A stretch of 63,541 nucleotides of DNA, the filler included, from Reclinomonas americana ATCC 50394 (Eukaryota): the NCBI GenBank assembly GCA_048213135.1. It is 8 parts of 3 records of this genome, joined end to end, with 100 filler letters (N's around TTAATTAATTAA, not from the genome) between each part and the next. Parts side by side here need not be neighbours in the genome. Positions count along the whole stretch, not along the records: positions 55,728 to 63,541 come from PS015607.1; 7 more parts are not named here. One strand, written 5' to 3'. Below, piece after piece: positions 60,668-61,454 of this stretch (position 1 is its first letter; every line of letters begins with the position of its first letter). A program made the position numbers and the translations under genes. The notes under the pieces are model-generated. The model saw nothing but the letters and a program-made list of their open reading frames with translations, did no database searches and was not told the origin of the DNA.

Positions 60668-60826
60668 ATGGCTGACACCAACGAGTTCTCACGGGGTGGC
60701 GCTGACGCGACTGCGTCGGACTCGATCTGGGACGACATTGCCGGTGGCGCTGCGGAGGGCGCTGTCGATTTCGGACTCGGCGTGCTGTGCTGCCGCGAGA
60801 ACCCCGACGCTGCTCCGTCGCAGTAA
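60668..60826 (+). CDS. Small peptide A (52 aa), tandem paralogue pair
   Basis: MADTNEFSRGGADATASDSIWDDIAGGAAEGAVDFGLGVLCCRENPDAAPSQ*; only synonymous differences from peptide B over the first 22 codons. Confidence 0.85.
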   Translation: MADTNEFSRGGADATASDSIWDDIAGGAAEGAVDFGLGVLCCRENPDAAPSQ

Positions 60827-61301
60827 TACAAAAGAAACACACAGAGGAAGACAGTGTGTGAGGCCTCTCTCGGCCGCGCTGTCTGATTTTTTGTTTGTTT
60901 GCAATCGAATCAATAATACACGAGAAAGTTCTCGCAACACGATTGGTGTGTGTCTCTTTTGTTTTTTTCTTTTGTTCCTGCGTCGCGCATGCAGTCTCGA
61001 CAATGCACAAGACGGACCACGTGTCGTGCATTACGTCACGCGTGATGAATGAGCTTTTTTGTTCACGATTCGAACATGTTCGATGTCAGTCACGCATATG
61101 TGTGTGCGAGTGTGTGTGTGCAGGCAGACAACAAAGCAGAGCAGTGGGACGAGAGAGACACAAGAGAAGAGAGGGCTGCTGTTGACTACGTAGTGCGAGA
61201 AGATCTCGCAGCGACCGTCCATTGCAAATTGCAAGCCGGCTGATTTTGTTCTATTCATCGCCTCTCCGCGCGCACTAGCAACTTCTCTCACACACTCAAT
61301 A

Positions 61302-61454
61302 ATGGCCGACACCAACGAGTTCTCACGGGGTGGCGCTGACGCCACTGCCTCCGACTCCATCTGGGACACCGTCGCCGAGGTCGGCGCTGATGTGGCTGTC
61401 GACGGTGGCCTCGAGCTGCTGTGCTGCCGTCAGGACGACGCACCGCCGCAGTAA
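61302..61454 (+). CDS. Small peptide B (50 aa), tandem paralogue pair
   Basis: MADTNEFSRGGADATASDSIWDTVAEVGADVAVDGGLELLCCRQDDAPPQ*. Confidence 0.85.
   Translation: MADTNEFSRGGADATASDSIWDTVAEVGADVAVDGGLELLCCRQDDAPPQ

What the first reader, a model, noticed from the sequence alone, without database searches (positions are those of the whole stretch)
60668..61454. Tandem pair of ~50-aa peptide genes with invariant leader, GG motif, variable amphipathic core and CC motif
Seen: both are below the ORF-track cut-off. The first 22 residues are identical (MADTNEFSRGGADATASDSIWD) with 5 synonymous and 0 non-synonymous changes. A divergent Gly/Ala/Val core follows, then a conserved LCCR..D..P.Q end. 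Both ATGs follow similar cacaca(t/c)tcaa leaders and there is no signal peptide. Inference: purifying selection shows these are real proteins. The conserved-leader/variable-core layout with Gly-Gly recalls RiPP or double-glycine bacteriocin precursors; alternatively they are palmitoylated (CC) microproteins or pheromone-like peptides. The neighbouring MAPKK-like kinase may or may not be linked.
Basis: partly seen in the sequence, partly recalled or inferred. Interest (0 to 1): 0.75.

Follow-up and report, generated by a model that had tools for sequence, protein, structure and literature searches.

The report
Orphan tandem microprotein gene pair
Two neighbouring 50-residue genes in an intron-rich protist genome look like real, selection-maintained small acidic proteins with no known relatives, but nothing supports the idea that they are bacteriocin-like or RiPP precursors, and their function is still a guess.

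Summary
ORF A (60668-60826, 52 aa) and ORF B (61302-61454, 50 aa) share an identical 22-residue N-terminus, with 5 synonymous and 0 non-synonymous differences. They also share a conserved L-C-C-R...D.AP.Q end and a similar 12-nt stretch before the ATG.

Similarity stops at the ORF borders: the flanks match no better than random pairs, and the ORFs are 78% identical. Overall dN/dS is 0.25 with dS 0.64. The annotated frame is the only one of six with host-like codon usage. I read these as old tandem paralogues of a real coding gene.

The 'amphipathic' label fails a shuffle test. The Gly-Gly lies inside the invariant block, not at a leader/core border.

No relative was found in Pfam, NCBIfam, PDB, the ESM Atlas, 1.84 billion protein representatives, or the metagenome and prokaryote DNA scans. 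The double-glycine leader and MSDIN definitions are not met. No maturase or transporter lies on the contig.

The host is a eukaryote, and the window is a concatenation of contigs. No genome or RNA run was available, so expression is untested.

My best guess is intact cytosolic acidic microproteins with a docking N-terminus and a di-cysteine acylation site. Interest is moderate to low.

The parts
60656..60667 (+). Conserved 12-nt stretch before the ATG of gene A (ACACACATTCAA). Possibly a start context or initiator-like element.
   Evidence: Direct repeat D1 begins at 60656/61290. CAYTCA-N0-6-ATG occurs 11 times in the window against 3.8 +/- 1.9 in shuffles. One of the 11 is the start of the 536-codon minus-strand ORF at 59367. 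The pattern was chosen after seeing the data.
60668..60826 (+). Microprotein gene A, 52 codons plus TAA. Invariant N-terminal block 60668-60733, divergent Gly/Ala/Val/acidic middle 60734-60784, conserved LCCR tail 60785-60823 (Cys-Cys codons 60788-60793).
61290..61301 (+). Conserved 12-nt stretch before the ATG of gene B (ACACACTCAATA).
61302..61454 (+). Microprotein gene B, 50 codons plus TAA. Invariant block 61302-61367, divergent middle 61368-61418, LCCR tail 61419-61451 (Cys-Cys codons 61422-61427).
61727..63232 (+). Neighbouring multi-exon protein-kinase gene on the same strand. Its likely start ATG is 272 nt after the stop of B. It is listed as context only, because no link to the peptides is shown.
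   Evidence: Reading. Pfam Pkinase on exon 62521-62697 (E 4.8e-14) and on 62640-62918 (E 6.3e-5).

Best explanation
SHOWN: A and B are old tandem paralogues (634 nt start to start, dS about 0.6) of a lineage-restricted protein-coding microgene in an intron-rich, flagellated eukaryote. Selection has kept the ATG, the reading frame, the stop, every one of the first 22 residues and an L-C-C-R...D.AP.Q end. Meanwhile silent sites, the 17-residue middle and all flanking DNA diverged.

INFERRED: each gene is translated on its own into a roughly 5.1-5.2 kDa, strongly acidic (net -8 and -9) protein with no signal peptide. It is probably helical or disordered, stays inside the cell, and acts intact rather than as a precursor.

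Proposed mechanism, at motif level only:
- The invariant N-terminal 22-mer is a docking sequence for a conserved partner. The best candidate is S-D-S-I-W-D-(D/T)-(I/V), which fits the [W/F/Y]-x-x-[L/I/V] Atg8-binding (LIR) core in its usual Ser/Asp context.
- The hydrophobic-Cys-Cys-Arg motif is a dual S-acylation site that tethers the peptide to a membrane.
- The fast-evolving Gly/Ala/Val/Asp middle is a spacer or specificity segment.

My odds: real translated genes about 0.85; intact intracellular microprotein rather than processed precursor about 0.6; S-acylated Cys-Cys about 0.35; Atg8-type docking about 0.1-0.15.
For: - Selection (Nei-Gojobori): leader sd 5, nd 0; core sd 8, nd 13 (omega 0.47); tail omega 0.23; whole ORF sd 16 of 37.3 sites against nd 16 of 112.7 sites (omega 0.25, Fisher p = 4.1e-4). 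Differences by codon position are 6/8/18.
- The leader's identity is not due to gene conversion. Its silent sites differ about as much as those of the core (5 of about 15 against 8 of about 14, p = 0.27), whereas replacement changes are 0 of about 51 against 13 of about 37 (p = 3e-6).
- Similarity starts 12 nt before the ATG and ends at the TAA. The flanks are at random-pair level.
- The frame of A is closed by TGA 11 codons upstream of its ATG (60632-60634).
- The codon log-odds were trained on 1284 codons of Pfam-supported exons from this window. They are positive only in the annotated frame among six, for both genes (+0.29 each). The genes rank 16th and 15th of 181 ATG ORFs of 40-70 aa.
- No RNA family matches the region.
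- There is no signal peptide or transmembrane segment, and the charge is -8 and -9.
- AlphaFold2 gives one long helix, residues 7-44, at low confidence (pLDDT 62).
- W21-x-x-I24 (A) and W21-x-x-V24 (B), with S17-D18-S19 upstream, fit the LIR core consensus and its acidic/Thr preference as given in PMC7615515 (passages read; motif located).
- That di-cysteine motifs next to hydrophobic and basic residues are typical S-acylation sites is my recollection, not a call.
Against: - There is no evidence of transcription or translation. No genome is held and no sequencing run was listed.
- Only two sequences exist, so site-wise selection and the 'variable core' rest on one pair.
- No relative exists anywhere to borrow a function from.
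- The structure model is of low confidence.
- The LIR-type motif is weak evidence. Each peptide has a single Trp, and 6 of 52 (A) or 8 of 50 (B) residues are I/L/V, so W-x-x-[ILV] arises by chance in roughly one such peptide in seven (inference from the sequences).
- S-acylation usually needs prior membrane affinity, and these peptides are very acidic and not measurably amphipathic.
- B ends only 272 nt before the likely kinase start on the same strand. A shared transcript is therefore not excluded.
Confidence: 0.45

Rival explanations
1. Upstream cistrons of the kinase mRNA. A and/or B lie in the 5' leader of the downstream kinase transcript. They would act either as conserved-peptide uORFs that gate its translation, or as co-expressed small regulators (docking or pseudo-substrate peptides) of that kinase.
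For: - The genes are on the same strand as the kinase. The stop of B (61454) is 272 nt before the ATG at 61727, which opens the kinase's glycine-loop exon (MFPSEERANLGVGTYAEV...).
- The ATG at 61556 that might look like the kinase start is out of frame with that exon when spliced at the obvious GT/AG pair (my reading). The kinase leader could therefore be long.
- The peptides carry Ser/Thr in acidic contexts (visible in the sequence).
Against: - A lies 900 nt upstream, with B and several other ATGs in between (61489 and 61556). Such a leader would nearly silence the kinase.
- Both peptides keep their own similar 12-nt pre-ATG stretch, which is also seen at the start of an unrelated large ORF at 59367. 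This fits separate gene starts.
- From memory: conserved-peptide uORFs are usually most constrained at their C-terminal end, not in an invariant N-terminal 22-mer.
- No RNA data are available to decide.
Confidence: 0.12
2. Precursors of processed peptides (a RiPP-like or bacteriocin-like layout). The invariant N-terminus would be a recognition leader for an unlinked maturase or protease, the variable middle would be the product, and the LCCR tail would be a follower.
For: - Strong heterogeneity of constraint along the peptide: replacement changes are 0 of about 51 sites in the leader against 13 of about 37 in the middle, p = 3e-6.
- The tandem duplication, small size and lack of a signal peptide loosely parallel the conserved-leader / variable-core / conserved-follower plan of the fungal MSDIN family (PMC5159998, passages read).
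Against: - The double-glycine consensus M(R/K)ELX3E(I/L)X2(I/V)XG(G/A) (PMC3140520, passage read) is not matched. Only 11 residues precede and include the GG, with S, N and T where I/V, I/L and E are required.
- Eleven invariant residues follow the GG.
- The middle has omega 0.47, not above 1.
- No Pro flanks the middle, whereas MSDIN needs two Pro residues and a 6-10 residue core.
- No Pfam or NCBIfam precursor family matches at E <= 10.
- No peptidase, ABC-transporter, prolyl-oligopeptidase, radical-SAM or YcaO domain appears in the ORFs scanned (150 of 154 ORFs of >=150 aa over the whole window; all 115 ORFs of 60-149 aa from 47 kb on).
- The host is a eukaryote, and the peptides carry net charge -8 and -9.
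Confidence: 0.05
3. Exported signalling peptides (pheromone-like) that leave the cell by a non-classical route, possibly after lipid modification of the cysteines.
For: Small size, no signal peptide, a conserved Cys pair and tandem paralogues with a divergent middle. That lipidated, leaderless pheromones exist in fungi is my recollection.
Against: The Cys pair lies 9-10 residues from the C-terminus, so it is not a C-terminal CaaX or CC prenylation motif (visible in the sequence). There are no dibasic processing sites. The peptides are very acidic. No exporter gene lies on the contig.
Confidence: 0.08
4. Not translated. The similarity would reflect a duplicated non-coding element, or a decaying duplicate of something else, and the open frames would be fortuitous.
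For: There are no expression data. No homologue exists in any database searched. GC-rich DNA here carries many long spurious ORFs. The codon-usage rank is good but not extreme (15th and 16th of 181).
Against: - All 5 leader differences are silent (P = 8.5e-4).
- Differences are biased 6/8/18 towards third positions, and omega is 0.25 (Fisher p = 4.1e-4).
- The single indel is 6 nt and in frame.
- The ATG and TAA are kept in both copies, and similarity ends exactly there.
- No Rfam match.
Confidence: 0.1

Closest known systems
Lineage-restricted small-ORF microproteins (orphan sORF genes) of eukaryotes
   Same: About 50 codons, below annotation cut-offs, no detectable relatives. They are recognisable only by paralogue conservation and codon-level selection.
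   Different: This is a category, not a family, and it predicts no function. Unlike many reported microproteins, these have no transmembrane helix.
Double-glycine-leader bacteriocin/RiPP precursors (class II bacteriocins, NHLP/N11P) exported by C39-peptidase ABC transporters
   Same: Short precursor-sized peptides in tandem, a Gly-Gly in the N-terminal part, and a more variable following segment.
   Different: The leader consensus is not matched (set against the sequence). The GG is not at the border of conservation. The peptides are acidic rather than cationic or hydrophobic. There is no HMM match and no transporter on the contig. The host is a eukaryote.
MSDIN precursor family of amatoxin/phallotoxin-producing agarics
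   Same: A eukaryotic family with no signal peptide, a conserved leader, variable core and conserved follower, and many tandem or clustered paralogues (PMC5159998).
   Different: MSDIN precursors are 33-37 aa, with a 10-aa leader ending in Pro, a 6-10 aa core ending in Pro, a 17-aa follower and a terminal Cys. Here the peptides are 50-52 aa with a 22-aa invariant block, a 17-aa middle without Pro and no terminal Cys. The host has a cilium gene (CCDC39), so it is not an agaric.
LIR/AIM-bearing Atg8 adaptors
   Same: W-x-x-[I/V] preceded by Ser/Asp, lying within the invariant block.
   Different: This is a short linear motif only, with a chance occurrence of roughly 1 in 7. Binding is untested, and no Atg8 sequence of this organism was available.
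Dually S-acylated proteins with adjacent cysteines (for example the di-cysteine motif at the N-terminus of GAP-43; recalled, not from a call)
   Same: Hydrophobic residue(s), then Cys-Cys, then a basic residue, invariant in both copies.
   Different: The motif is near the C-terminus of a very acidic peptide. No acylation data exist.
Conserved-peptide upstream ORFs (CPuORFs)
   Same: Small conserved ORFs on the same strand, shortly upstream of a regulatory gene (a kinase).
   Different: There are two paralogous copies 634 nt apart, each with its own start context. The strongest constraint is at the N-terminus. Whether they share the kinase transcript is unknown.

Membership tests
Double-glycine leader precursors | Leader matching M(R/K)ELX3E(I/L)X2(I/V)XG(G/A) (PMC3140520) | tested here: not met
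   MADTNEFSRGG has only 11 residues up to the GG. Position -4 is S (needs I/V), -7 is N (needs I/L) and -8 is T (needs E). Sequence, consensus.
Double-glycine leader precursors | The Gly-Gly marks the cleavage site at the leader/core boundary | tested here: not met
   G10-G11 is followed by 11 more invariant residues. Conservation ends at residue 22.
Double-glycine leader precursors | Match to a curated precursor HMM (Pfam/NCBIfam) | tested here: not met
   0 families at E <= 10 in Pfam and NCBIfam.
Double-glycine leader precursors | Cognate C39-peptidase ABC transporter nearby or in the genome | tested here: inconclusive
   None appears among the ORFs scanned in the window. However, the true contig is only 55728-63541, and the whole genome is not held.
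MSDIN family | 33-37 aa; 10-aa leader ending in Pro; 6-10 aa core ending in Pro; 17-aa follower; terminal Cys (PMC5159998) | tested here: not met
   The peptides are 50 and 52 aa. Pro occurs only at 46 and 50 (A) and 48 and 49 (B). No Pro borders the variable segment 23-39. The C-terminal residue is Gln.
LIR/AIM Atg8-binding motif | Core [W/F/Y]-x-x-[L/I/V] with acidic/Ser/Thr residues before the aromatic residue (PMC7615515) | tested here: met
   DSIWDDI in A and DSIWDTV in B. The motif alone is weak evidence.
LIR/AIM Atg8-binding motif | Physical binding to the LIR docking site of Atg8 | not testable with these tools
S-acylated di-cysteine proteins | Thioester-linked fatty acid on the cysteines, and membrane association that depends on them | not testable with these tools
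   Only the invariant L-C-C-R is seen.
Conserved-peptide uORFs | The ORF lies on the same mature mRNA, upstream of the main ORF | not testable with these tools
   No RNA run was listed. Geometry only: 272 nt from the stop of B to the kinase ATG at 61727.
Ankyrin repeat | Match to ankyrin-repeat profiles | tested here: not met
   - Pfam Ank models gave no hit at E <= 10.
- hhalign of the A/B profile against 5 repeat units of the window's own ankyrin ORF gave probability 0.2%.
- The only pairwise resemblances are BLASTP E 0.008 to one repeat, which is E 0.62 in the whole-window tblastn, and a DARPin in the PDB at E 2.1.

The most novel reading that the evidence does not exclude
A protist family of ribosomal precursor peptides. 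An invariant 22-residue recognition leader and a conserved Cys-Cys follower would bracket a fast-evolving 17-residue core that an unlinked enzyme excises or modifies. That would make it a RiPP-like system outside fungi, plants and animals. The strong contrast in constraint between leader and middle does not exclude this reading. The failed double-glycine and MSDIN tests and the lack of any maturase on the contig make it unlikely.
Probability: 0.05. Interest if true: 0.8.

Novelty: new member of a known kind. Interest (0 to 1): 0.33.

Why it matters
If translated, these would be two unannotated genes found purely from paralogue conservation. That illustrates how sub-60-codon genes are missed in protist genomes.

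An invariant 22-residue block kept at dN = 0 while silent sites reached dS of about 0.4 implies a conserved binding partner. The peptide could therefore serve as a handle to find that partner, whether an Atg8-type protein, an acyltransferase or the adjacent kinase.

As it stands, the function is unknown and the family has two members in one poorly sampled organism. The general significance is therefore limited.

Tried and rejected
- Whole-genome search for more copies: no genome is held for this window.
- Sequencing runs: none was listed for 60600-61520, and no RNA holder was listed. Read laying was therefore not used and expression remains untested.
- Word-based protein search with peptide A (28-91 aa candidates): no candidate.
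- HMMER profile of A+B against 1.84 billion representatives: 2 hits with E <= 0.001. Both are repeat-driven and rejected after reading them. P0001 is an 809-aa protein made of many near-identical repeats, matched in 8 stretches. P0002 is a 705-aa leucine-rich-repeat-like protein, matched in 6 stretches.
- ESM Atlas: best feature score 0.80, which is noise level by the tool's own calibration.
- Metagenome scan: 206 pattern matches, none confirmed. Prokaryote-genome scan: 21 pattern matches, none confirmed.
- PDB profile search: one hit, E 2.1, to a designed ankyrin protein.
- Ankyrin-repeat origin: followed up and rejected.
- Other copies in the window: tblastn at E <= 100 found only A and B. 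A weak match at 52622-52702 (E 0.03-0.04) has no ATG or leader and lies on another contig.
- The third small ORF at 59444-59611 is not related (hhalign probability 0.2%).
- Rfam over 59500-62000 at E <= 1: nothing.
- Complex prediction of A with B: no answer (score 0.01). This counts neither for nor against binding.
- Amphipathic helix: not above shuffles.
- Literature: the peptide strings were found in 0 papers.
- Earlier findings of this scan: nothing by place, sequence or words.
- Organism: a Nop14 exon found no relatives by word search. The GT17 ORF's best named relative is from Acrasis kona at 37% identity, so the lineage is unresolved.

Full report
WHAT IS THERE

A is 60668..60826 (52 codons plus TAA) and B is 61302..61454 (50 codons plus TAA). 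Both are on the + strand, 634 nt apart start to start.

The translations share an identical 22-residue N-terminus, MADTNEFSRGGADATASDSIWD. The five nucleotide differences in these 66 nt are all third-position and all silent. After that comes a 17-residue Gly/Ala/Val/Asp/Glu-rich middle with 8 of 17 residues identical. Then comes a conserved end, L-C-C-R-(E/Q)-...-D-x-A-P-x-Q, with one in-frame 6-nt indel.

IS IT MORE THAN CHANCE?

Yes.
- Only 24% of possible substitutions in the leader are silent, so five silent out of five has P = 8.5e-4.
- Nei-Gojobori counts:

| Segment | Synonymous changes | Non-synonymous changes | omega |
|---|---|---|---|
| Leader | 5 | 0 | 0 |
| Middle | 8 | 13 | 0.47 |
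| Tail | 3 | 3 | 0.23 |
| Whole ORF | 16 of 37.3 sites | 16 of 112.7 sites | 0.25 |

- For the whole ORF, Fisher's test gives p = 4.1e-4 and dS is 0.64.
- Silent divergence in the leader is not lower than in the middle (p = 0.27). Replacement divergence is much lower: 0 of about 51 sites against 13 of about 37 (p = 3e-6). The invariant leader is therefore due to selection on the protein, not to recent gene conversion.
- Similarity begins 12 nt before the ATG and ends at the stop. The 200 nt on either side align at 0.51 and 0.53 identity. That is the level of random pairs from the same contig (0.508 +/- 0.025), and the ORFs align at 0.78.
- The frame of A is closed by a TGA 11 codons before its ATG.
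- A codon log-odds table was trained on 1284 codons of Pfam-supported exons from the window. It is positive only in the annotated frame among six, for both genes, and it ranks them 16th and 15th of 181 ATG ORFs of 40-70 aa.
- No Rfam family matches.

I conclude that these are old tandem paralogues of a real coding gene (about 0.85).

WHAT DOES NOT HOLD

'Amphipathic' is not supported. The best helical hydrophobic moment is matched by 1053 of 2000 shuffles for A and 711 of 2000 for B.

The only Gly-Gly conserved in both copies is G10-G11, in the middle of the invariant block. The other GG pairs sit at different positions in A and B.

CONTEXT

The window is a eukaryote with many short GT-AG introns. 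Pfam finds CCDC39 (a cilium protein), glycosyltransferase 17, ankyrin repeats, Nop14 and cyclophilin, split over several ORFs. It also finds an actin-like gene, a cyclase and a protein kinase.

The window is not one piece of chromosome. Seven N44-TTAATTAATTAA-N44 linkers show that it is a concatenation of contigs. The contig that carries the finding runs from 55728 to at least 63541, with a 630-N gap at 57805-58434. Only four features are physically linked to the peptides:
- a minus-strand ORF starting at 59367;
- a 55-codon + ORF at 59444-59611, which is unrelated to A/B;
- the two peptide genes;
- a seven-exon kinase gene.

The kinase's glycine-loop exon opens with the ATG at 61727, which is 272 nt after the stop of B. 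By my reading, the ATG at 61556 is out of frame with that exon. A shared transcript can be neither shown nor excluded.

The organism is unresolved. The best named relative of the GT17 ORF is from the heterolobosean Acrasis kona, at only 37% identity. A Nop14 exon found nothing by word search.

RELATIVES

None was found.
- Pfam and NCBIfam at E <= 10: nothing.
- Word-based search of 5.8 billion clusters: nothing.
- HMMER profile against 1.84 billion representatives: two hits, both carried by internal repeats and rejected on reading.
- ESM Atlas: 0.80, which is noise.
- PDB: one hit, E 2.1.
- Metagenome and prokaryote-genome DNA scans: 206 and 21 pattern matches, none confirmed.
- The peptide strings occur in no paper of the library.

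Because eukaryotic ORFs of 50 codons are rarely predicted, these blanks show that the family is unannotated, not that it is unique. No genome is held and no sequencing run was listed, so paralogue number and expression are open.

THE RiPP / BACTERIOCIN READING

I tested it against written definitions.

The double-glycine consensus M(R/K)ELX3E(I/L)X2(I/V)XG(G/A) (PMC3140520, passage read) is not matched. Only 11 residues precede and include the GG, and positions -4, -7 and -8 are S, N and T. The GG is also not at the boundary of conservation.

The MSDIN definition is 33-37 aa, with a 10-aa leader ending in Pro, a 6-10-aa core ending in Pro, a 17-aa follower and a terminal Cys (PMC5159998, passages read). 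It is not met either. There is no Pro next to the variable segment, the lengths differ and the C-terminal residue is Gln.

No peptidase, ABC transporter or maturase domain was seen in the ORFs scanned. The peptides carry net charge -8 and -9, unlike membrane-active bacteriocins. The middle segment has omega 0.47, not above 1.

I put this reading at about 0.05. It remains the most novel reading that the data do not exclude, because the contrast in constraint between leader and middle is real.

HOW IT MOST LIKELY WORKS (INFERENCE)

The product has no signal peptide or transmembrane segment. It is very acidic and is modelled as one long helix at low confidence (pLDDT 62). An invariant 22-mer in so small a protein is best explained as a docking sequence for a conserved partner.

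Within that 22-mer, S-D-S-I-W-D-(D/T)-(I/V) fits the LIR/AIM core [W/F/Y]-x-x-[L/I/V], with the usual acidic/Ser context (PMC7615515, passages read; motif located). With one Trp per peptide, such a motif arises by chance in roughly one peptide in seven, so it is a lead only.

The invariant hydrophobic-Cys-Cys-Arg motif looks like a dual S-acylation site (recalled knowledge). That would tether the peptide to a membrane.

I therefore favour intact, intracellular, possibly membrane-tethered adaptor microproteins. My composite confidence is 0.45, and most of it rests on the 'real, unprocessed small protein' part.

Rivals:
- cistrons or uORFs of the kinase mRNA (0.12);
- exported pheromone-like peptides (0.08);
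- untranslated sequence (0.10);
- RiPP-like precursors (0.05).

A co-fold of A with B gave no answer and counts neither way. A passing resemblance to an ankyrin repeat failed both the Pfam and the profile-profile tests.

VERDICT

The bacteriocin/RiPP interpretation is not supported, and the function is unknown. This is a new, unannotated orphan microprotein pair. It is worth a transcript and proteome check if data for this organism exist, but it is not in itself a surprising kind of object.

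Noticed in passing
window 6857-6956, 12422-12521, 29908-30007, 34858-34957, 40058-40157, 47773-47872, 55628-55727: Seven N44-TTAATTAATTAA-N44 blocks. These look like six-frame-stop linkers joining separate contigs. If so, gene order across them is arbitrary, and only 55728-63541 is physically linked to the finding.
   Followed up: yes
window 59444-59611 (+) and 59367 leftwards (-): A third small ORF (55 aa, MENQQQQQCGG...) has a positive codon score (+0.39). 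It lies head-to-head, about 80 nt away, with the start of a 536-codon minus-strand ORF. It is not related to A/B (hhalign probability 0.2%) and has no Pfam or NCBIfam match. It could be another microgene or a first exon.
   Followed up: partly
window 61727-63232 (+): The kinase gene has about seven short exons. Its catalytic-loop region reads HRDIRPAN (Arg where Ser/Thr kinases usually have Lys), and DFN stands in place of DFG. Its N-terminus starts almost directly at the glycine loop. The ATG at 61556 is out of frame with it. The 'MAPKK-like' label was not tested beyond Pfam Pkinase hits on two exons.
   Followed up: partly
window-wide; e.g. 60658-60670, 61292-61304, 59367-59378 (-): The pattern CAYTCA-N0-6-ATG occurs 11 times, against 3.8 +/- 1.9 (maximum 9) in 200 mononucleotide shuffles. 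It precedes A, B and the large minus-strand ORF at 59367. It may be a start context or initiator-like element of this organism. The pattern was chosen after seeing the data.
   Followed up: partly
window 60825-60848 and 60947-60975: An inverted repeat (19-21 nt arms, 81-89% complementary, about 105 nt apart) starts right at the stop codon of gene A. Nothing similar lies after gene B.
   Followed up: no
window 52622-52702 (+): A weak tblastn match to the middle and CC part of A and B (E 0.03-0.04). It has no ATG or leader and lies on a different contig, so I judged it chance.
   Followed up: yes
window 61455-61500: A (GA)n run and an (AATG)n microsatellite lie directly after the stop of B. TG/CA and GA microsatellites are frequent throughout the contig.
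   Followed up: no
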